A stretch of DNA of 64,000 bases from Candidatus Latescibacterota bacterium (lineage in GTDB: Bacteria > Latescibacterota > UBA2968), in assembly GCA_965222605.1 (NCBI GenBank), contig OZ244960.1:2624001-2688000 (forward strand), given 5' to 3'. Below the pieces are notes generated by a model, which was not told the origin of the DNA, did not search any database, and saw only the letters and a program-made list of their open reading frames with translations. The position numbers and the translations under genes are program-made. Of this stretch, positions 20,967 to 56,570 are shown one piece after another (the stretch's first letter is position 1; every line of letters begins with the position of its first letter).

Positions 20967-21548
20967 TCACTTCTTATTATACTGATTCATTGCCCGTTCA
21001 ATACCTTCTGTTGCCCAACAAAGAGCGCCCTCGACCACTTGCCCAACCGCATCTGTAATCACATCCCGATCTTTGGATGTAAATTCACCCAACACATAAT
21101 CAATCATCCCATCCAACTCGGCGGGTTGCCCAATACCGACGCGCAACCTCGGAAAATCCGCAGCCCCCAACGCGCGCTCAACAGACCGCAAACCATTGTG
21201 CCCGCCGTGACTGCCCGTGCGCCGAAAGCGCAACTGCCCCAAACTTAGATACACATCGTCAACCACCACGAGCACATCTGCCCGTGCAACCTCAAAACAC
21301 CGCGCAATCTCCGCCACACCCAAACCGCTCTTATTCATATAAGTCAGCGGCTTGACCAGCACCAGATCATCTGAAAACTTGCACCACGTACAAAACTCAA
21401 ACGCATGCCACTGTGCATCTTTGCCCAGCGCATCAACCACCCAAAATCCCACATTGTGGCGCGTATGTGCATAGCGCGCGCCCGGATTGCCCAGCCCCAC
21501 AACCGCCTTTACACCGTACGGGCGAGGCATGCCTCGCCCCCTACTCAT
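20967..21548 (-). CDS. pth: Peptidyl-tRNA hydrolase (start at ATG 21548 or ATG 21530, both translating REP sequence)
   Basis: VGLGNPG..Y..TRHNVGF, KPLTYMNKSG, GSHGGHNGLRS, RLRVGIG. Confidence 0.93.
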   Translation of the reverse strand: MSRGRGMPRPYGVKAVVGLGNPGARYAHTRHNVGFWVVDALGKDAQWHAFEFCTWCKFSDDLVLVKPLTYMNKSGLGVAEIARCFEVARADVLVVVDDVYLSLGQLRFRRTGSHGGHNGLRSVERALGAADFPRLRVGIGQPAELDGMIDYVLGEFTSKDRDVITDAVGQVVEGALCWATEGIERAMNQYNKK

Positions 21549-22233
21549 CGCCTTCTTCGTCATCGCTGCTGCGCCTGCCACCGCGCTCAATAAGCTCTGG
21601 CTCTTGCATTTCTTCGCCTTCTTCGCCTTCTTCGCCCAATTCGTCTTCTTCTTCCTCTTCTTCTTCGACAATAAGCGCGGGCGCAGCCACCGCAAACACC
21701 GTGCGGTCGTCATCCGTCACAATGGTCATCTCATCGCCACTCAGGACAATATCCGAAACGTGCAGCGAATCGCCAATCTCCAAATCCGACACATTAATTG
21801 CAACATTATCGGGTATATCTACAGGCAGGCACTCAACCTCAAGCTCGTGCAACATCTGTTCCAGAATCCCCTCGCCAATCCGCACCCCAACGGCAGACCC
21901 CGTAGCGTGAATAGGCACTTCAACCACAATTTTGCGCGTCAAATCAATGCGGTGAAAATCAACATGCAAAATCTCACCGAGCACGGGATGATACTGAATA
22001 TCCTTAATAATAGTACTCTGGCTCGTATCGCCCGCACTCAGCGAAATAATCGCGTTGCGGCCGTGCGCCTTCAACAAATCGGACAACGTGCGATAATCCA
22101 CGGAACAGGCAACAGACGCGGCATTCTCGCCATAAACAACCGCGGGCAATTGACCGCGATAGCGCAACCGCTTGGCAAATTTTTTTCCGGCTTCCGTGCG
22201 AACATCTACATTGAGAGAAACTTGATCGGACAT
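21541..22233 (-). CDS. rplY: 50S ribosomal protein L25/Ctc
   Basis: LPAVVYG, IKDIQYHPV..ILHVDF, C-terminal Ctc domain and acidic tail; GGAG RBS. Confidence 0.93.
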   Translation of the reverse strand: MSDQVSLNVDVRTEAGKKFAKRLRYRGQLPAVVYGENAASVACSVDYRTLSDLLKAHGRNAIISLSAGDTSQSTIIKDIQYHPVLGEILHVDFHRIDLTRKIVVEVPIHATGSAVGVRIGEGILEQMLHELEVECLPVDIPDNVAINVSDLEIGDSLHVSDIVLSGDEMTIVTDDDRTVFAVAAPALIVEEEEEEEDELGEEGEEGEEMQEPELIERGGRRSSDDEEGDE

Positions 22234-22235
22234 AT

Positions 22236-23099
22236 TTATTCTCCAACGGGACAACACAAAAAAGCCCGAAACTGTTCGGCCTTAAACCGTGCCCAAACAG
22301 CCTCGGCAACATCTCGAGACTCAAAAACACCGTAAAGCGTGGAACCACTGCCAGACATCGACGCAACTATCGCGCCGGCATCTGTCAATCGCGACAAAAT
22401 ATCGCGCGTTTCCGGATACGACTGCACAATGAGAGGCAAAAAATCATTCTCAATACGCCCCCAAAAATCCGAAACGGACAAATCTTTTACAGAATTGATG
22501 AAATTATCATATTCACCATGCCCTGTCAAGGTCTTTTTGTAATTTGCAAAAGCCCAGCCCGTATGCACCTGAAACCCCGGACAAACCAACACATAAACCA
22601 CATCCGCAGACCACGGCACATACCGCACAGACTCCCCCCGCCCCGAAACAACTGCCGTACCCTTTTGCCGCACAAAAAACGGCACATCAGACCCCAAAGT
22701 CGCGCCTATCTCGCGCAATTCTCGACTTGAAAGACCCGCTTCCCACGCGCGATTCAAAACCCGCAACACAGCCGCCGCATCTGAACTCCCACCCCCCAAA
22801 CCCGCCGCCATTGGAATCCGCTTCTCCAGCACAACCTCAACGCCCCGCGCCATCCCCGTATAAGACCGAAATGCCGAAATCGCCTTATACACCAGATTCT
22901 CTGGACCCACGGGCAAATCCGCATCGTCGCACGACAAAATAATCTGCCCCTGCCCGGCGTGTTTGAAAACGAGGCGATCGCACAGATCCACAGTCTGAAA
23001 AACCGATAAAATATCGTGAAACCCATCGCCGCGCCGCCCGAGAATCTTCAGCCCTAAATTGAGCTTTGCATATGCGTACTCGACAATATCCAAAAGCAA
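22236..23099 (-). CDS. ispE: 4-diphosphocytidyl-2-C-methyl-D-erythritol kinase
   Basis: AKLNLGL, KRIPMAAGLGGGSSDAA, LGSDVPFF, MSGSGST. Confidence 0.95.
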   Translation of the reverse strand: MLLDIVEYAYAKLNLGLKILGRRGDGFHDILSVFQTVDLCDRLVFKHAGQGQIILSCDDADLPVGPENLVYKAISAFRSYTGMARGVEVVLEKRIPMAAGLGGGSSDAAAVLRVLNRAWEAGLSSRELREIGATLGSDVPFFVRQKGTAVVSGRGESVRYVPWSADVVYVLVCPGFQVHTGWAFANYKKTLTGHGEYDNFINSVKDLSVSDFWGRIENDFLPLIVQSYPETRDILSRLTDAGAIVASMSGSGSTLYGVFESRDVAEAVWARFKAEQFRAFLCCPVGE

Positions 23100-23298: not shown

Positions 23299-26200
23299 AT
23301 GATCCTTCTCAAAAACACATTAATTTTCATCGTCCTCTTCGGAACATCATCCCTCTGCGCGCAGGGGACCCAGGATGAAAATTCGCATTTTGAACTCGCA
23401 AAGCGAATCTACAACGACGGCCTCTATGCCGATGCCGCGCGGGAATATAAGCAATTCATCATCAACTTCCCCACCAGCAAGCGACTGCCCGATGCCACGC
23501 TGCGCGTTGGGCAAGCCCATGCCAGAGCCGAACAATACGACCTCGCACTCGAAGCCTTTCAGCAATTCATCGACCGCTACGCCACCCACATCGAAGTCGC
23601 CAGTGCAATGCGCGCACGCGCCAATGCACTCAGCCAACTTGGGGAACACACCCGAGCCGGCGCGGCCTATCGCGATGTACACGCGGCCTATCCCGCCTCG
23701 ACAAACGCGCCCCAGGACCTCTTATCAGCCGGCGAGAACTACCACAAAGGCGGTGCCTTATCAGAAGCTGGCGCGGCCTTTCGCCAACTCGCCGCACAAT
23801 ATCCCAAATCGCCACTAATCAATGAAGCCACCTTCAACCTGGGCCGCGTCTTACTCGAAGAATCGCGCGCCGAAGAAGCCCTCGCGCAATTCCGCACCCT
23901 CGCCGAACACCCCGGTTCAGCAAAGCGCAAACCCGACGCCCTCCTCGAAATGGGCAACATCGCCCTATCGCGCGACAACCTCCCTGAAGCAGAACGCATC
24001 TTTGCAAACCTGCGCGCCAGATATCCCGCAACACCTGCCGCCCAGAACTCGCACCTCATCCTGGGCGCGTGGCACGCCGGCAAAAACGACTGGGCACGCG
24101 CTGAAAAAACCTATAACAACGCCCTTGCAACAATCCCGAACAACACCCGTCTCCAGCAAGCCATGTTGGGAAGTGCAAATGCAAAACGCAAACTCGGCAA
24201 AAGCGAAAGTGCGCTACAACGCTACGCCTCATTTCTAAGAGCCTATCCCAAAAGCCCCTTCCACGCCCACGCCCTGCTGGGCTATGGCCGCACATTTGCA
24301 GACCTGAAAAATTATCGCAATGCACTGGACGCATTCAAAAACCTGCAGGAAAAATATCCAGACACAGACATCAGCATCCAGGCTTATGGCGACATCGGAA
24401 ACTTATGGCGCGCGCTTGGAACGCACCAAAAAGCACTGTCAGCGTATCAAACATACCTCACGCGCATACAATCCCCCAGCGAAAAAGCCAATGCACGGCT
24501 GCACATCGCGCAACTCTGTGAAGACCTGCACTGGTATGACCTCGCAGCCGAAAATTATCGCACCCTGATCAACAGCCCAATCGCACACTACGCAGCCGAA
24601 GGTCAATACGGATTCGCCCGCGTATTTGAAAAAACCGGAGACCCCGCACTCGCACTGCGAGAATACCGCACCTACATCAAAAACCACGCCGACGCCTCGC
24701 ACGCCGAAACAGCAGAAAGGCGCATCCAACTCCTCACCGAATTTGGCACCGCAACCGACCGCGACCGCACATGGCTCGAACTCCTCGCCAACTTGCCCGG
24801 CATCGCCGACGATGCACACACGCAATTTATACTCGGCAAAACCCTCTACAATCAAAAACACTACAACCGCGCAATCACCCACCTCGAAGCCGCGCTCGCA
24901 TGGCATACGTACGGGCGAGGCATGCCTCGCCCCTACACGCCCACATCGGCTAACGATGACACATCCACCAACATGCCTCGCCCCTACACACCCGCAAGTA
25001 CGGGCGAAAAATCTTTCGCCCCAACATCCAGCGACACACTCGCACTTGCCGCCGAAGCCGCACGCGCAGCCGAAGCCGCACTCGCGGCATTATCCACATC
25101 TAATGACACACCATCTAATGACGACACACCTGCTCCGCCACCCAACGGGCGGGCACAGGGGGATATGCGGGACGGCACGGGGACCGTCCCCTACACATCT
25201 GAAGACACACCATCGGATGAGTACGGGCGAGGCATGCCTCGCCCCAACGACACGCTCGCCTCAGCACCCAACGACGCCCCCCCCTGGGCATCTGAAGCCT
25301 ATTATCTCCTCGGCAACAGCTACTTAAAACAGGCGCGCAGAGCCACCCTCGAAAACAAATCCCCAGACAAATGGCAAAACAAAGGCATCGCAACACTCAA
25401 AATACTCGTCAAAATATTCCCCGACAACGACCATGCGGAAAACGCCGCACTCGCCGTCATACACACAGAAACAGCCCACATACAACCCGACACCCTCCGC
25501 GCACAAACGCGTCTGAGCGCCTATCGCGCATATCAAAAAACACATCCCAACAGCCCCGATTTGCTCCTGCGAATCGCCGACGCCCACTTCTCCAACACCC
25601 ACATCGACAGCGCCCTCAGCCTGTATCTCCAGATCGAAAAAAAAGCCAGCGACCCCACACGCAAAGAAAAAACCGCCTATCGCATCGGCTTGTGTCAGGC
25701 CCGGCAACAACAACACATACGCGCCGAAGAAACCCTGAAAAACTTCCTCTTCAACTATCCGCAGAGCAACCTATTACCGCACGCGCAATTTCAACTGGGC
25801 CGCATACTCCTCGACCGGGAATTTTACGCCAGCGCCGCCGAAGCATTCTCCGAACTCCTCTCCGCATCCCCAACGCTCGCACTCCAGCGATCTGCCCGCT
25901 CGCTATTGGCCGAAAGCTACCATCGCCTGAGGAACTATCAACGCGCCATAGAAATAGACGAAAGCCTGATCACCCACAACACCACCCCCCAATTATTGCG
26001 CCGCCTCGCCAAATCCTATTCTCAAAACAACCAGCACAACAAAGCCATCACAACTTATGACATGTACCTCCGCAAATATCCACAAGCACCCGACGCCGAC
26101 AGCATCGCCTTCACACGCGCCGAACACCTGACATCGCGCAACCGCACATCAGAAGCCCTCACCGCCTTCCGCGAATTCTCCCAAAAATACCCCAACAGCC

Positions 26201-27264
26201 CGCTCGGTACACAGGCGGATCAATCTGTGGGCGACCTCCTCTTTCAAACGGAAAAATACGCCCAGGCCATCGCCGCGTACCAGCGCATACCAGAACCCGC
26301 GCGCAACGAAACCATGGCCGCCCGCGAAGTCTTGAGCCTCTACCGCCTCCGGCGCATCAGCGAAGCCAACAAAGCCGCGGGCCAATTCAAAAAAACCTAT
26401 AAAACAGCAACCGAATGGCTCGCCCGCTTCGAAGTCGAAAAAGGCAAATATCAACTCGCCGTCAAAAATCCCAAAAAAGCGCGACAAATCTTTGAAGACA
26501 TCTCAAAAAAATACGCCGCCACCGAAGCAGCGGCCGACGCGCGTTATTACATCATCCGCGCCTATCGCGACGAAGGACCCGACAAAGACGGCAACAACGA
26601 CCCCTATATCAACGCACTCACCGCATTCATAAAAAATTATCCCGACAGCCCGCACTGGGCAAACGCCAACATCGAACTCGCCGAATTTTGGGAACGCAAC
26701 GAAGAATACAACCTATCTGCACGCGCATATCGCAACGCCATTGAAAAAGGCGTCTCCCAATCCGAAAAACCCCGCATCCTTCAAAAACTCGCAAAAAATT
26801 ACGGCAACCTCAACGCCTACGACCTCGCCATCAACTTTGCGCGCCAACTCATCCGCGAATTTCCCCAGGACCCCCTTGCCCTGGGAGCCAGCATCGACAT
26901 CGGCACCATCTACCTGCCCAACAAAGGCGCCCACGCGCAAGCCATCGCAGAACTTCGGCCCCTGCTCAAAATCGTGACCGAGGAAAGTAAAAAAGCCAAT
27001 ATCCAATACGCCATCGCAGAAAATTATTTTAAAATGGCCGACTATACCAACGCACTCCGAGAATTTTTGATCCTGCGCTACAACCAGAAAGCGGGGCCCA
27101 TGTGGATCGTATCCGCACAAATGAAAGTAGCAGATTGCTATGCGGCACAGGGCAAGACTGAACAAGCCATACACGAACTCCAGGCAATCAAACGCAGCCA
27201 CGGCGCCGCCAGCAACTACGGCGTGGGCGCGGAGAAACGCATTCGGGAAATAAAAAAGAAATAA
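23299..27264 (+). CDS. Long periplasmic TPR protein (CpoB/BamD-like repeats) with internal REP-derived insertion
   Basis: Signal peptide; many A...F..F...YP.S...A TPR_6-like repeats; non-TPR insert at ~24901-25285. Confidence 0.88.
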   Translation: MILLKNTLIFIVLFGTSSLCAQGTQDENSHFELAKRIYNDGLYADAAREYKQFIINFPTSKRLPDATLRVGQAHARAEQYDLALEAFQQFIDRYATHIEVASAMRARANALSQLGEHTRAGAAYRDVHAAYPASTNAPQDLLSAGENYHKGGALSEAGAAFRQLAAQYPKSPLINEATFNLGRVLLEESRAEEALAQFRTLAEHPGSAKRKPDALLEMGNIALSRDNLPEAERIFANLRARYPATPAAQNSHLILGAWHAGKNDWARAEKTYNNALATIPNNTRLQQAMLGSANAKRKLGKSESALQRYASFLRAYPKSPFHAHALLGYGRTFADLKNYRNALDAFKNLQEKYPDTDISIQAYGDIGNLWRALGTHQKALSAYQTYLTRIQSPSEKANARLHIAQLCEDLHWYDLAAENYRTLINSPIAHYAAEGQYGFARVFEKTGDPALALREYRTYIKNHADASHAETAERRIQLLTEFGTATDRDRTWLELLANLPGIADDAHTQFILGKTLYNQKHYNRAITHLEAALAWHTYGRGMPRPYTPTSANDDTSTNMPRPYTPASTGEKSFAPTSSDTLALAAEAARAAEAALAALSTSNDTPSNDDTPAPPPNGRAQGDMRDGTGTVPYTSEDTPSDEYGRGMPRPNDTLASAPNDAPPWASEAYYLLGNSYLKQARRATLENKSPDKWQNKGIATLKILVKIFPDNDHAENAALAVIHTETAHIQPDTLRAQTRLSAYRAYQKTHPNSPDLLLRIADAHFSNTHIDSALSLYLQIEKKASDPTRKEKTAYRIGLCQARQQQHIRAEETLKNFLFNYPQSNLLPHAQFQLGRILLDREFYASAAEAFSELLSASPTLALQRSARSLLAESYHRLRNYQRAIEIDESLITHNTTPQLLRRLAKSYSQNNQHNKAITTYDMYLRKYPQAPDADSIAFTRAEHLTSRNRTSEALTAFREFSQKYPNSPLGTQADQSVGDLLFQTEKYAQAIAAYQRIPEPARNETMAAREVLSLYRLRRISEANKAAGQFKKTYKTATEWLARFEVEKGKYQLAVKNPKKARQIFEDISKKYAATEAAADARYYIIRAYRDEGPDKDGNNDPYINALTAFIKNYPDSPHWANANIELAEFWERNEEYNLSARAYRNAIEKGVSQSEKPRILQKLAKNYGNLNAYDLAINFARQLIREFPQDPLALGASIDIGTIYLPNKGAHAQAIAELRPLLKIVTEESKKANIQYAIAENYFKMADYTNALREFLILRYNQKAGPMWIVSAQMKVADCYAAQGKTEQAIHELQAIKRSHGAASNYGVGAEKRIREIKKK
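24901..25250 (+). repeat. In-frame cluster of six REP/half-REP units from four families inside the TPR gene
   Basis: Family A 24913, 24972 (half), 25225; GGGCGAAAAATCTTTCGCCCCAAC 25002-25025; GGGCGGGCACAGGGG 25147; family B 25169. Confidence 0.88.
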
Positions 27265-28852: not shown

Positions 28853-29027
28853 GAATGCCTCCGATTCTCGGAACCATCCAATAGGGTCGTGGGTCTAATC
28901 GTGGGAAAAATACGACGGGCGAAATGTTCTCACCCAATCGGGCGAGGCATGCCTCGCCCCTACATTCATTTCATCTGCGTTCATCTGCGTTCATCTGTGG
29001 ATCACACTTCAAAAAGGAGTTATCGCT

Positions 29028-40043: not shown

Positions 40044-40145
40044 GACTCTCCTCAGACGATTAGGGCGAGGCATGCCTCGCCCCTACATTCATTTTATCTG
40101 TGTTCATCTGCGTTCATCTGCGTTCATCTGCGGATACTTTTACCC

Positions 40146-42522: not shown

Positions 42523-43929
42523 ATGCCAAAAACAACAGACATAAAAATCAAATCCGTCGCCACCTACTTCCTCCCCGTACAAACGCGCATACCCTATCGC
42601 TTTGGCACCGAACAACTCGACAGCGTCACCTGCGTAAGAGTTCGCGTCGATATCGAAGACCACCGCGGCAACACCGCTTGCGGCTGGGGAGAAACACCCT
42701 TAAGCGCGCCCTGGGCATGGCCATCGCCACACCTCACATACACCATTAGAGAAACGGCCATGAAAAACTTCTGTCTCAAAATCGGACGCGCCTGGGCAGG
42801 TATCAACACAACCGGTCACCCCATAGAAATCGGCCACACATTCCAGGAAAATATCCTCCCCAATCTCCTGTCAGCCTTCAACATCGAACAACAAAACACC
42901 ACAGGGGACATGCCCCGCCTATCCGCGCTCGTCTGTGCATCGGCTTATGACCTCGCCCTCCACGACGCCTATGGCATGCTCCACAACATCGACACCTACG
43001 ACACGTACAACGCCGATTTCATGAACGCCGATCTCTCGCACTATCTCGACCCAGCCGACGACATCAACTACAACTTCTCCGGTCGCTATCCCGAAACCTA
43101 TCTCATCCGCCCGCGCCCAAACCGCCTGCCCGCATGGCACGCCGTAGGCGGCAACGACCTCCTCGACGACGCCGAACGCACAGGCGATGAACCCGACGAC
43201 GGCTATCCCGTGGTCCTCCCCGACTGGATACAGCGCGACGGCATCACCTGCCTCAAAATCAAACTCACCGGACAAGAACCCGGATGGGACTACGACCGCA
43301 TCGTCCGCATCGGACAAATCGGCATCGAACACAATGCCATGTGGTTGTGTACAGACTTCAACTGCACCGTCCAGGAAGTCGATTACGTCAACGACATCCT
43401 GGACCGCCTCCTGACCGACCACCCGCGCATCTATCAAATGATCCTCTACGTCGAACAACCCTTTGCTTATGAACTCTCTGACAACCCCCTCCACGTACAC
43501 AGCATCTCCGCGCGCAAACCCCTCTTCATGGACGAAAGCGCGCACGACTGGCGCGTCATACGCCTGGGGCGGCAACTCGGCTGGACCGGCGTCGCACTCA
43601 AAACCTGCAAAACCCAAACCGGCGCCCTGCTCTCCCTCTGCTGGGCACGCGCACACGGCATGACACTCATGGTACAGGACCTCACAAATCCCATGTTCGC
43701 CCAAATCCCCCACGCCCTGCTCACCGCCCATGCCGGCACCGTCATGGGCTTTGAAACCAACGCCATGCAATTTTATCCCGACGCCTCACTCCCCGAAGCC
43801 GCCGTACACCCCGGCGTCTATCGCCGGCAAAACGGCCACATCGACATCTCCACAGTCAAAGGTCCCGGCTTTGGATACAAACACCACTTGATCAACCGCA
43901 CACTTCCGGAACCCGCTGATAGGAATTGA
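42523..43929 (+). CDS. Enolase-superfamily (mandelate racemase-like) protein
   Basis: GWGE, LKIKL, DFN, EQP, DES metal ligands, ALKTCK. Confidence 0.8.
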   Translation: MPKTTDIKIKSVATYFLPVQTRIPYRFGTEQLDSVTCVRVRVDIEDHRGNTACGWGETPLSAPWAWPSPHLTYTIRETAMKNFCLKIGRAWAGINTTGHPIEIGHTFQENILPNLLSAFNIEQQNTTGDMPRLSALVCASAYDLALHDAYGMLHNIDTYDTYNADFMNADLSHYLDPADDINYNFSGRYPETYLIRPRPNRLPAWHAVGGNDLLDDAERTGDEPDDGYPVVLPDWIQRDGITCLKIKLTGQEPGWDYDRIVRIGQIGIEHNAMWLCTDFNCTVQEVDYVNDILDRLLTDHPRIYQMILYVEQPFAYELSDNPLHVHSISARKPLFMDESAHDWRVIRLGRQLGWTGVALKTCKTQTGALLSLCWARAHGMTLMVQDLTNPMFAQIPHALLTAHAGTVMGFETNAMQFYPDASLPEAAVHPGVYRRQNGHIDISTVKGPGFGYKHHLINRTLPEPADRN

Positions 43930-44046
43930 AAGACAAAACCTTCTGGATCGCACGGGACGGCACGGGGACCGTCCCCTACAACACCATGCCGCGATGACGC
44001 ACGGGACGGCACGGGGACCGTCCCCTACACAAAAAGGCACATACCA

Positions 44047-56420: not shown

Positions 56421-56570
56421 TCAGGATGTGCAGGATGAAAGGATGGACAGGATGAAAATCAAAAACTTCTGGATCGCACGGGACGGCACGGGGACCGTCC
56501 CCTACAACACCATGCCGCGATGACGGCTCTACAGCACATGATTTGCTGACCGCTGATAGCTTGTTTTGCA

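What the first reader, a model, noticed from the sequence alone, without database searches (positions are those of the whole stretch)
24895..25290. ~125-codon in-frame insertion built from four REP families inside a TPR protein
Seen: between TPR helices AITHLEAALA and PWASEAYYLLG the gene carries six REP units: family A at 24913 (YGRGMPRPY), half A at 24972 (MPRPY), GGGCGAAAAATCTTTCGCCCC at 25002 (GEKSFAP), half C at 25147, family B at 25169 (RDGTGTVPY) and A at 25225 (YGRGMPRP). They are joined by short related spacers (ACATCxxxxGAxGACAC, TSxDDT). All are co-oriented, they are read in more than one frame, and the 1321-codon ORF stays open. Established: Rickettsia palindromic elements insert in frame in proteins, normally as single elements. 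Inference: serial accretion of different REPs at one permissive loop is creating new protein sequence. The repeat-spacer layout may record successive insertion events at a hotspot.
Basis: partly seen in the sequence, partly recalled or inferred. Interest (0 to 1): 0.82.

Follow-up and report, generated by a model that had tools for sequence, protein, structure and literature searches.

The report
Mobile DNA hairpins translated inside a protein loop
Small selfish palindromic DNA repeats (REPs) have repeatedly landed, in frame, in one floppy loop of a large helical-repeat protein of an uncultured Latescibacterota bacterium; this is a rich example of a phenomenon already described in other bacteria.

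Summary
The 1321-codon TPR gene (23299-27264, +) carries a 124-codon insert (24901-25272). It holds two perfect copies and one half copy of REP-A, one REP-B, one GGGCGAAAAATCTTTCGCCC element (REP-K) and the 5' half of a fourth family (REP-F). They are read in three registers and the frame stays open.

These are GTAG/CTAC-footed REPs of the RAYT type. The genome holds about 125 to 141 of them, nearly all between genes, and one RAYT-like gene is flanked by REP-A.

Four outgroup genera and four basal congeners have a 6-9-residue turn at this site. A 16-species clade has inserts of 65-119 residues with different REP content, and 16 further metagenomic orthologues have other combinations. One species shows a clean 24-nt REP-K insertion. 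Conspecific populations carry an allele 118 codons shorter, still in frame.

AlphaFold2 puts the insert, disordered, between two confident TPR helices.

Only about 38% of the insert is REP sequence. The rest is an older Ala-rich helix under purifying selection plus T/S/D/N/P-rich low-complexity sequence.

In-frame intragenic REP clusters are already published (Di Nocera 2013; Quentin 2018), and this scan has found them before on other DNA. I class it as a new member of a known kind, of moderate interest.

The parts
23299..27264 (+). Gene for a 1321-aa secreted or periplasmic TPR protein built of about 10 YbgF/CpoB-like TPR modules. The N-terminus looks like a signal peptide (MILLKNTLIFIVLFGTSSLCAQ; my reading, no predictor was run).
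   Evidence: ORF. Pfam TPR_6, TPR_16 and YfiO. NCBIfam tol_pal_ybgF 329 bits in 10 stretches. A match was found in 41 of 41 genomes of the order searched.
24901..25272 (+). Lineage-specific in-frame insert of 124 codons (residues 535-658) between two TPR helices.
   Evidence: Absent from 4 outgroup genera and 4 basal congeners. Present at 65-119 residues in 16 congeners. pLDDT is below 50 over protein residues 538-657, while the flanking 10-residue blocks average 88 and 91.
24909..24936 (+). REP-A copy 1: GTAC + GGGCGAGGCATGCCTCGCCC + CTAC, read as YGRGMPRPY.
   Evidence: Exact 20-nt palindrome with 7 copies in the window. The genome holds 22 loci at up to 3 mismatches, 20 of them exact. A 30-nt match to an intergenic copy.
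24972..24987 (+). 3' half of REP-A (CATGCCTCGCCCCTAC), read as MPRPY. A truncated relic.
   Evidence: 92% identical to 24921-24945 over 25 nt (repeat D4).
24998..25025 (+). REP-K: GTAC + GGGCGAAAAATCTTTCGCCC + CAAC, read as TGEKSFAP in another register. It is the only copy in this genome.
   Evidence: 1 copy in G000, but 139, 65 and 48 counts in congeners G008, G014 and G020 (forward plus reverse, up to 1 mismatch).
25033..25094 (+). Ala-rich helix core of the insert (DTLALAAEAARAAEAALAALS), partly made of 18-nt tandem units. It is not REP-derived.
   Evidence: Tandem repeats D7 and D2. Present in 16 of 16 insert-bearing species; 12 of 16 have identical residues with synonymous differences; third-position identity is 0.81 against 0.83 and 0.91 in the flanks. 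AlphaFold2 predicts a low-confidence helix here.
25147..25162 (+). Read as GRAQG.
   Evidence: The family GGGCGGGCAC(A/G)GGGGCACCGCCC has 22 + 10 copies. Bases 25135-25161 match a genomic copy at 92.6%.
25169..25194 (+). REP-B: GGGACGGCACGGGGACCGTCCC + CTAC, read as RDGTGTVPY.
   Evidence: 9 matches in the window (7 exact). 54 loci in the genome at up to 3 mismatches. Many 27-30-nt matches to intergenic copies.
25221..25248 (+). REP-A copy 2: GTAC + GGGCGAGGCATGCCTCGCCC + CAAC, read as YGRGMPRPN.
25024..25039 (+). Low-complexity unit ACATC-N4-GACACAC (T-S-x-D-T). Two more lie at 25096-25111 and 25195-25210.
   Evidence: 3 matches in the window, all in the insert, against 0.43 expected; 1 of 100 shuffles reaches 3. 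Similar units occur in REP-free alleles.

Best explanation
**What it is.** The segment is a lineage-specific, mostly disordered loop in a conserved periplasmic TPR scaffold protein. It has become a landing pad for GTAG/CTAC-footed REP hairpins of the RAYT (TnpA-REP) type.

**Shown.**
- The loop was short in the ancestor.
- On the stem of a 16-species clade it acquired an Ala-rich helix with T/S/D/N/P-rich low-complexity flanks.
- After that, REP units from at least four families appear at several positions. They range from perfect to decayed, and their content differs between alleles.
- Different families occupy the same site in different species.
- Only frame-preserving variants are seen, so the protein is read through the REPs.
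- A conspecific allele lacks almost the whole insert, in frame.

**Inferred.**
- The REPs entered by the same single-strand, RAYT-dependent or REP-templated process that spreads them between genes. Entry is helped by the very high local REP density near the replication origin and by REPs attracting further REPs.
- The units are 24-28 nt long and the REP-A and REP-K units have no stop codon in any frame (my reading of the sequence), so in-frame survivors are tolerated.
- They persist because the loop projects from a turn between two TPR helices.
- The short allele arose by deletions, at least one of them between 14-nt direct repeats.
- The REP-encoded residues are passengers. They are dispensable.
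For: **REP identity.** The hairpins are exact copies of dispersed families. Among 1513 GGG...CCC hairpins in the genome, 137 are followed by CTAC; the next commonest tail, TTTT, has 51. 17 adjacent pairs were found, 12 of them convergent. A RAYT-like gene is flanked by GTAG-REP-A on both sides and has a REP-A variant in frame between its HuH and Y motifs. It scores 58.5 bits, E 6.5e-16, against NCBIfam REP_Tyr_transpos, and 26.1 bits against Pfam Y1_Tnp. This is the published signature of TnpA-REP subclass 2.4 (PMC6006769, passages read).

**Almost all REPs lie outside genes.** Of 141 hairpin loci, only those in this gene lie deep in a convincing gene. Of 370 six-frame REP heptapeptides, only the TPR ORF is convincing. 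In G008, 1 of 23 exact REP-K copies is intragenic, and it is the orthologous loop.

**Comparative series.** Loops are 6-9 aa in 4 outgroups and -3 to +5 aa relative to the anchors in 4 basal congeners. Inserts of 65-119 aa occur in 16 congeners that form a clade with SH-aLRT 100. Sister species G013 and G012 differ: no REP against 2 REP-A plus 2 REP-K. G019 has a clean 24-nt REP-K insertion turning SAY|EHILVE into SAYVRAKNLSPQHILVE. At the site after ...ALAD there is either REP-A or half REP-F plus REP-B, a 24-nt difference in length. 16 further orthologues from metagenomes have still other combinations.

**Translation.** There are 12 distinct insert lengths and all are multiples of 3. Frame 0 has no stop in 16 of 16 species, while frame +2 has 1-15 stops. 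The core helix is conserved at the residue level with synonymous changes.

**Structure.** Protein residues 538-657 have pLDDT below 50. The 10-residue blocks holding the flanking helices 522-539 and 664-684 average pLDDT 88 and 91.

**Dispensability.** In runs X3 and X4, contigs at main depth (83x and 72x) join 24899 to 25272 through 18 other letters. That allele is 354 nt (118 codons) shorter, with flanks at least 99% identical. Insert-bearing contigs are in the minority (22.9x in X4, 3.4x in X3). In X2, two contigs without a single difference, overlapping at REP-B, cover the long form.
Against: - No direct evidence of transposition exists. Only REP-A has a candidate RAYT, its NCBIfam score is below the curated cut-off (58.5 against 80), and no RAYT was found for REP-B, REP-F or REP-K.
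- REP-K has just one copy in this genome, so its copy here was inherited or imported by recombination. It was not recently transposed here.
- Perfect palindromes at the same position in distant congeners could reflect selection or gene conversion at the DNA or RNA level. That would argue against neutral passengers.
- The two forms of the left part of the insert do not follow the species tree, so recombination between lineages may explain part of the mosaic without any new insertion.
- Frame +1 is also stop-free in 13 of 16 species because the DNA is T-poor, so an open frame alone is weak evidence.
- Translation has not been shown by proteomics.
- The allele data come from assembled contigs, not raw reads.
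Confidence: 0.8

Rival explanations
1. Adaptive hypervariable loop. The host exploits REP turnover and slippage in this exposed loop to diversify a secreted TPR protein, for example for interaction with an animal host. On this reading the polymorphism is maintained by diversifying selection.
For: - There are very many alleles: 16 insert-bearing genome alleles plus 16 from metagenomes, nearly all different.
- Alleles differ between populations in different samples.
- The mosaic distribution does not follow the tree.
- The core helix is under purifying selection, so the insert is not pure junk.
Against: - The REP-encoded peptides are whatever the hairpin happens to spell, in three registers.
- The composition is low-complexity and predicted disordered.
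- A near-complete in-frame deletion dominates in two runs.
- Basal congeners and all outgroups do without the insert.
- No test for positive selection was possible on unalignable repeats.
Confidence: 0.1
2. Function at the nucleic-acid level. The intragenic REP hairpins act in the mRNA or DNA as pause, attenuation, stability or gyrase sites that tune expression of the two halves of this long gene. The encoded residues would then be a by-product.
For: - Several copies are perfect palindromes with no substitution across species, while neighbouring Ala codons show synonymous variation.
- The insert RNA folds far better than shuffles (-155.6 kcal/mol, z -6.65).
- Intergenic REPs are proposed to act as RNA or DNA elements (PMC3733652).
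Against: - The number, family and position of REPs differ in almost every allele. Some alleles (G004, G013) have none, and the short allele lacks them all.
- The strong fold is expected from any set of palindromes.
- Perfect copies are equally explained by recent insertion.
Confidence: 0.07
3. Artefact or non-coding spacer. Either the region is misassembled, or the gene is really two genes separated by an intergenic REP cluster that happens to be open.
For: REPs are normally intergenic. Frame +1 is also mostly open in this T-poor DNA. De Bruijn contigs break at REP-B.
Against: - The same architecture appears in 16 independently assembled genomes and 16 metagenomic proteins.
- Two X2 contigs without a single difference (24400-25194 and 25166-25800), overlapping by 29 nt at REP-B, together cover the insert.
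- All 12 distinct lengths keep the frame.
- The core helix shows a protein-level conservation pattern.
- Outgroups encode one continuous 1200-1243-aa protein.
Confidence: 0.03

Closest known systems
Intragenic GTAG-tagged REPs (Di Nocera, De Gregorio and Rocco 2013, BMC Genomics 14:522, PMC3733652; passages read, supplements not seen)
   Same: Short GC-rich hairpins with a GTAG/CTAC foot, normally intergenic, sometimes inserted in frame in genes as singles, dimers or clusters. The paper reports clusters encoding 43-82 residues and proposes that they are tolerated in flexible linkers or loops.
   Different: - Four families share one loop here, in three reading registers.
- The insert is 124 residues, of which about 47 are REP-encoded (my count).
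- It lies in a TPR scaffold protein; the paper highlights replication and repair genes.
- A dense comparative series of more than 30 alleles shows gain, decay, replacement and deletion.
- The phylum (Latescibacterota) was not covered: a search for 'repetitive extragenic palindrom' with 'Latescibacter' returned one unrelated paper.
TnpA-REP (RAYT) subclass 2.4 / RAYT group 4 with 'double-foot' REPs and REPs inside the tnpA gene (Quentin et al. 2018, BMC Genomics 19:475, PMC6006769; passages read)
   Same: The stem bottom is three G-C pairs. REP-A carries GT[AG]G at the 5' end and C[TC]AC at the 3' end. [quoted passage not shown]
   Different: Subclass assignment was not tested phylogenetically. 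The NCBIfam score is below the cut-off. The paper reports in-frame REPs inside the transposase gene itself and only cites earlier reports for other genes; here the host gene is an unrelated TPR gene.
Rickettsia palindromic elements (RPE; Ogata et al. 2000 and Claverie and Ogata 2003 are recalled; RPEs are mentioned in PMC3733652)
   Same: Mobile palindromic repeats inserted in frame in functional genes, translated, and tolerated at surface positions. A route to new protein sequence.
   Different: As I recall, RPEs are about 100-150 bp and restricted to Rickettsia. The units here are 24-28 nt GTAG-type REPs in a free-standing 6.3-Mb genome with a RAYT. Many units from several families sit in one loop.
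BIME-type REP clusters of Escherichia coli (recalled; no call)
   Same: REPs accumulate next to other REPs with short related linkers, giving mosaic clusters that vary between strains.
   Different: BIMEs are extragenic. This cluster is translated.

Membership tests
GTAG-type REP / RAYT (REPtron) elements | Short (20-40 bp) GC-rich imperfect or perfect palindrome present in many dispersed copies | tested here: met
   REP-A has 22 loci and REP-B 54 loci at up to 3 mismatches. REP-F has 22 + 10 copies. In all, 141 loci after removing overlaps, or 125 under the stricter family filter.
GTAG-type REP / RAYT (REPtron) elements | Conserved GT[AG]G tetranucleotide at the foot of the hairpin (CTAC on the other strand) | tested here: met
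   137 GGG...CCC hairpins are followed by CTAC; the next commonest tail has 51. GTAG precedes many REP-A copies. The copies in the gene carry GTAC at the 5' end; GTAG there would place TAG in frame (my reading).
GTAG-type REP / RAYT (REPtron) elements | Predominantly extragenic location | tested here: met
   apart from this gene and the RAYT gene itself, no REP lies deep in a convincing gene. No gene caller was available, so stop-to-stop frames were used.
GTAG-type REP / RAYT (REPtron) elements | A cognate RAYT gene flanked by the REPs | tested here: inconclusive
   Met for REP-A: a 179-aa gene (L038:1297-1836) is flanked by REP-A. It scores 58.5 bits against NCBIfam REP_Tyr_transpos (cut-off 80) and 26.1 bits against Pfam Y1_Tnp (cut-off 23). 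No REP-flanked RAYT was found for REP-B, REP-F or REP-K. A second RAYT-like gene (L037) has no such REPs.
GTAG-type REP / RAYT (REPtron) elements | REP doublets in inverted orientation (REPINs) | tested here: met
   17 adjacent pairs within 80 nt, 12 of them convergent. Examples are visible in the flanks printed.
GTAG-type REP / RAYT (REPtron) elements | Mobilisation by the RAYT | not testable with these tools
   Only indirect evidence: one clean 24-nt insertion, and REP orientation that flips at dnaA and the GC-skew minimum.
Intragenic (coding) REPs in the sense of Di Nocera et al. 2013 | The REP lies inside a gene with known homologues, in frame, and homologues without the REP are shorter at that point | tested here: met
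Rickettsia palindromic elements (RPE) | Element of about 100-150 bp belonging to the RPE families of Rickettsia (recalled definition) | tested here: not met
   The units here are 24-28 nt. Sequence similarity to RPEs was not tested. The resemblance is one of mode only; this is not a member.
YbgF/CpoB-like TPR proteins (the host gene) | TPR_6-type repeats matching the tol-pal YbgF model | tested here: met
   TIGR02795, 329 bits, 10 stretches. At 1321 aa the protein is a multi-module relative. It is not an orthologue of the about 260-aa CpoB.

The most novel reading that the evidence does not exclude
This loop is a natural recorder of REP mobility. Its ACATC...GACAC low-complexity coding repeats, together with resident REPs, act as preferred targets. 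Dozens of alleles would then preserve exact junctions of independent REP insertions, of REP-by-REP replacements (REP-A against half REP-F plus REP-B at one site, differing by 24 nt) and of deletions. That would make the still unproven in vivo mechanism of RAYT-driven REP spread, and the birth of protein sequence from selfish hairpins, directly readable from population data. A stronger form is that the resulting loop diversity is used by the bacterium in its association with an animal host.
Probability: 0.2. Interest if true: 0.65.

Novelty: new member of a known kind. Interest (0 to 1): 0.42.

Why it matters
The case shows, with an unusually complete comparative series, how selfish DNA hairpins can add tens of residues to a conserved protein without breaking it. 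It also shows how fast such sequence turns over: perfect, decayed, replaced and deleted copies all occur among close relatives and within one species. It extends RAYT-type REPs and coding REPs to Latescibacterota. The precise insertion and deletion junctions could be mined to learn how REPs move. It does not reveal a new kind of system.

Tried and rejected
- **Spacer consensus.** I replaced it with ACATC-N4-GACACAC.
- **Other proteins carrying the insert.** With the insert as query against longer proteins, all 16 hits were orthologues of this TPR protein. Only 8000 candidates were scored, so absence elsewhere is weak evidence.
- **RNA evidence.** In one metatranscriptome run (X15), a 552-nt contig 93% identical to the window, so from a relative, runs from the half REP-A and REP-K into the downstream coding part through a shorter insert. 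DNA can be present in such libraries and these are contigs, so I do not count this as proof of transcription. Parts without cover in X15 say nothing.
- **RNA fold.** The insert folds with z -6.65. Palindromes give this by construction, so I draw no conclusion.
- **Spacers as relics of another element.** The SANDDT-coding spacers might be relics of the GGATCGCGGC...GCCGCGATGAC hairpin family. I noticed the likeness by eye and did not test it.
- **Low-complexity units as REP target.** I compared junctions by eye only. The CTACA tail is also present at intergenic copies, so the idea stays open.
- **Earlier findings.** A look-up by sequence returned one unrelated note sharing 3 of 180 words.
- One search failed because my coordinates contained stop codons. 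I corrected it through.
- **Not attempted.** No structure search, no complex prediction, and no test for positive selection.
Full report
**1. What is there**

The + strand holds an open frame of 1321 codons at 23299-27264. It encodes a TPR protein. Pfam finds TPR_6, TPR_16 and YfiO. NCBIfam finds the tol-pal YbgF model in 10 stretches, 329 bits. The N-terminus looks like a signal peptide; that is my reading, and no predictor was run.

All six units are at the stated places:
- REP-A GGGCGAGGCATGCCTCGCCC at 24913 and 25225, each preceded by GTAC and followed by CTAC or CAAC.
- The 3' half of REP-A at 24972.
- GGGCGAAAAATCTTTCGCCC (REP-K) at 25002.
- The 5' half of the family GGGCGGGCAC(A/G)GGGGCACCGCCC at 25147.
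- REP-B GGGACGGCACGGGGACCGTCCC plus CTAC at 25169.

Shuffles of the window give 0 matches for these words, against 7 exact copies of REP-A and 9 matches of REP-B (7 exact, 2 with 2 mismatches). REP-A, REP-K and REP-B are read in three different registers.

By my count, the REP-derived bases sum to about 142 of the 372 bases of the insert. The remainder is:
- an Ala-rich helix-coding core with 18-nt tandem units;
- T/S/D/N/P-rich low-complexity sequence, with three ACATC-N4-GACACAC units that occur nowhere else in the window.

**2. What the repeats are**

The whole 6.34-Mb genome has REP-A at 22 loci and REP-B at 54 loci at up to 3 mismatches. REP-K occurs only once, in this gene.

A scan for GGGNNN...NNNCCC hairpins found 1513. 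Of these, 137 are followed by CTAC, while the next commonest tail (TTTT) has 51. After removing overlaps there are 141 loci, and 125 under a stricter family filter. Of 17 adjacent pairs, 12 are convergent, as in REPINs.

Three matches to Pfam Y1_Tnp exist. One is a 179-aa gene whose best NCBIfam hit is 'REP-associated tyrosine transposase' (58.5 bits, E 6.5e-16, below the cut-off of 80). It is flanked on both sides by GTAG-REP-A and carries a REP-A variant in frame between its HuH and Y motifs.

That set of features is what Quentin et al. 2018 describe for TnpA-REP subclass 2.4 (PMC6006769, passages read): three G-C pairs at the stem bottom, 'double-foot' GT[AG]G...C[TC]AC REPs, and REPs inside the tnpA gene. 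A note from this scan (e1-3582690) led me to that paper. No REP-flanked RAYT was found for REP-B, REP-F or REP-K.

**3. Is the intragenic position unusual in this genome?**

Yes.
- For each of the 141 loci I took the longest stop-to-stop frame spanning it. Apart from chance hairpins inside ordinary genes, every REP other than those in the TPR gene and the one in the RAYT gene lies at the edge of a frame or in a frame with a nonsense-like translation.
- A six-frame search for 15 REP-encoded heptapeptides gave 370 occurrences. Only those in the TPR ORF are deep in a convincing gene.
- In the congener G008, 1 of 23 exact REP-K copies is intragenic, and it sits in the orthologous loop.
- With the insert as query against 5.8 billion protein clusters (longer proteins; 8000 candidates scored), all 16 hits are orthologues of this TPR protein.

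**4. Comparative evidence**

A match to the protein was found in 41 of 41 genomes of the order that were searched. Four outgroup genera have 1200-1223-aa proteins with a 6-9-residue turn at this site. Four basal congeners have -3 to +5 residues relative to my anchors. Sixteen congeners have 65-119 extra residues (alignment A1).

On a tree built without the insert, those 16 form one clade (SH-aLRT 100). The short-loop species are basal (quick method, 24 rows; G008 was left out because its gene is split into three frames).

All 16 share the core ...DTLALAAEAARAAEA.... Twelve have identical residues but synonymous differences. Third-position identity is 0.81, against 0.83 and 0.91 in the flanks. 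The core is therefore as old as the clade and is constrained as protein. This is the best available evidence that the insert is translated.

Around the core, REP content is a mosaic:
- Perfect REP-A, REP-B and REP-K hairpins occur at different positions.
- Decayed copies occur too, for example gggcgaggcatgccctac and a truncated REP-B.
- Some alleles have none (G004, G013).
- The sisters G013 and G012 differ by 2 REP-A plus 2 REP-K.
- In G019 a 24-nt unit (TAC + REP-K + C) sits cleanly inside the otherwise conserved SAYEHILVE, read in a third register.
- After ...ALAD the same site holds either REP-A or half REP-F plus REP-B, 24 nt apart in length.
- G014 and G008 carry two further GC-rich hairpins.

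The 16 metagenomic orthologues add further combinations. These include two REP-B copies flanking the core, a K-like unit read as GRNIFRPY, and a near-conspecific allele that lacks REP-B and the second REP-A.

REP-K is common in some congeners and absent from four of them. Counts at up to 1 mismatch, forward plus reverse, are 139 in G008, 65 in G014 and 48 in G020.

There are 12 distinct insert lengths among the 16 genomes, and all keep the frame. Frame 0 has no stop in 16 of 16. Frame +1 is also open in 13 of 16 because the DNA is T-poor, so frame maintenance is the stronger argument, not stop-freeness.

**5. Population data (contigs only, runs chosen)**

In X2, which may be the source sample, two contigs without a single difference cover 24400-25194 and 25166-25800. 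They break at REP-B.

In X3 and X4, from two other studies, the flanks are at least 99% identical. X3 has 1 difference in 500 bases and 3 in 381. The main-depth contigs (83x and 72x) join 24899 to 25272 through 18 other letters, which gives an allele 354 nt (118 codons) shorter. By position arithmetic it is in frame (2 + 18 + 1 bases).

Those 18 letters match the end of the core helix. The left breakpoint lies at the 14-nt direct repeat GAAGCCGCNCTCGC (repeat D2), which suggests deletion between repeats. Insert-bearing contigs are present at lower depth: 22.9x in X4 with 0 differences, and 3.4x in X3.

So the insert is polymorphic within the species and dispensable.

**6. Structure**

AlphaFold2 on residues 401-800 with the 20-row alignment gave mean pLDDT 70.1. 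The 10-residue blocks covering protein residues 401-530 average 60-94 and those covering 661-800 average 83-92. Residues 538-657 are below 50. The helices that end at 539 and start at 664 are confident, and a low-confidence helix is predicted over the Ala-rich core. The insert therefore sits in the turn between two TPR helices.

**7. Mechanism**

Shown:
- The units are copies of dispersed RAYT-type REPs.
- They entered a pre-existing, lineage-specific loop more than once.
- They decay and are deleted.
- Only frame-preserving states are seen.
- The loop is dispensable.

Inferred:
- Insertion used the process that spreads REPs elsewhere (RAYT-dependent single-strand transposition, or copying from other REP clusters).
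- It was favoured here by the local REP density and by resident REPs.

The local density is high. 51 of 125 REPs lie between 2.5 and 3.0 Mb, and 16 lie in this window. dnaA is at 3.035 Mb, at the minimum of cumulative GC skew. REP orientation flips there: 42 plus and 20 minus to the left, 10 plus and 35 minus to the right, with the palindromic REP-A excluded. As I recall, that pattern fits the lagging-strand bias known for IS200/IS605 relatives.

By my reading of the sequence, the 24-nt REP-A and REP-K units are stop-free in all six frames. The copies in the gene have GTAC where many intergenic copies have GTAG. GTAG there would put TAG in frame.

**8. Comparison with what is known, and verdict**

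In-frame GTAG REPs inside genes are described by Di Nocera et al. 2013 (PMC3733652; abstract and passages; supplements not seen). They report dimers and clusters that encode 43-82 residues, and they propose tolerance in loops. Rickettsia RPEs are the older example. REPs inside RAYT genes are described by Quentin et al. 2018. This scan has already noted intragenic REPs in several other genomes.

What this case adds:
- the phylum; a search for REP literature on Latescibacterota found nothing relevant;
- four families in one loop;
- an exceptional allele series showing gain, decay, replacement and deletion;
- polymorphism within a species.

I class it as a new member of a known kind, interest 0.42.

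Noticed in passing
window 21520-21539 (- strand genes): A REP-A copy lies directly after the stop of the L25/Ctc-like gene (ORF 21541-22257, -) and at the 5' end of the peptidyl-tRNA hydrolase frame (20967-21713, -). The ATG inside the palindrome would give MPRPYGVKAVVGLGNPG..., so the REP may supply or overlap the pth start.
   Followed up: partly
G000:C1:3942113-3942652 (L038:1297-1836): [quoted passage not shown] This matches the published TnpA-REP subclass 2.4 pattern.
   Followed up: partly
whole genome G000; dnaA at C1:3035134-3035619: REPs are concentrated next to the origin (51 of 125 between 2.5 and 3.0 Mb). Their orientation flips at the GC-skew minimum, where dnaA lies: 42+/20- to the left, 10+/35- to the right.
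   Followed up: partly
whole genome G000: The two commonest 14-mer sets (66 and 43 copies, for example around CCCCGTGTGTACGGGGA and CCACGCCTGTGGGGA) look like the repeats of two CRISPR arrays. Not located or checked.
   Followed up: no
e.g. window about 43920-43953, 43975-44002 and 56445-56479; many genome sites: A further hairpin family, GGATCGCGGCTAAAA-CATGCCGCGATGAC (14-mers with 42 and 32 copies), often sits immediately 5' of REP-B, forming composite units.
   Followed up: no
window about 28960-29000 and 40083-40120: Runs of a 10-nt unit (TTCATCTGCG-like) directly follow two REP-A copies. Other REP-A copies are followed by CACCCTT-type runs.
   Followed up: no
L043 (G008:C2:792300-796500): The orthologous TPR gene of G008, the genome richest in REP-K, is split over three frames (536, 457 and 337 aa). 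These are frameshifts or assembly errors.
   Followed up: no
L002 (G014) and L043 (G008), insert region: These alleles contain two more GC-rich hairpins (CCCCTCCCCG-TCT-CGGGGAGGGG and CCCCCTTCCT-ACG-AGGAAGGGGG) that encode ...PPSYEEG...PPRLGEGPGEG.... They may be further REP families.
   Followed up: no
L001-L016, left part of the insert: Two unrelated forms of the left part (...PSAYEHILVEE... and ...LPLEAPDGWAEH...) are distributed in a way that does not follow the tree. This hints at recombination between species or at old polymorphism.
   Followed up: no
window 24626-25327 (+): A 233-codon frame (+1 relative to the gene) stays open through the whole insert. This is an effect of the T-poor composition (T 12.6% in the insert) and is not evidence for a second gene.
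   Followed up: partly
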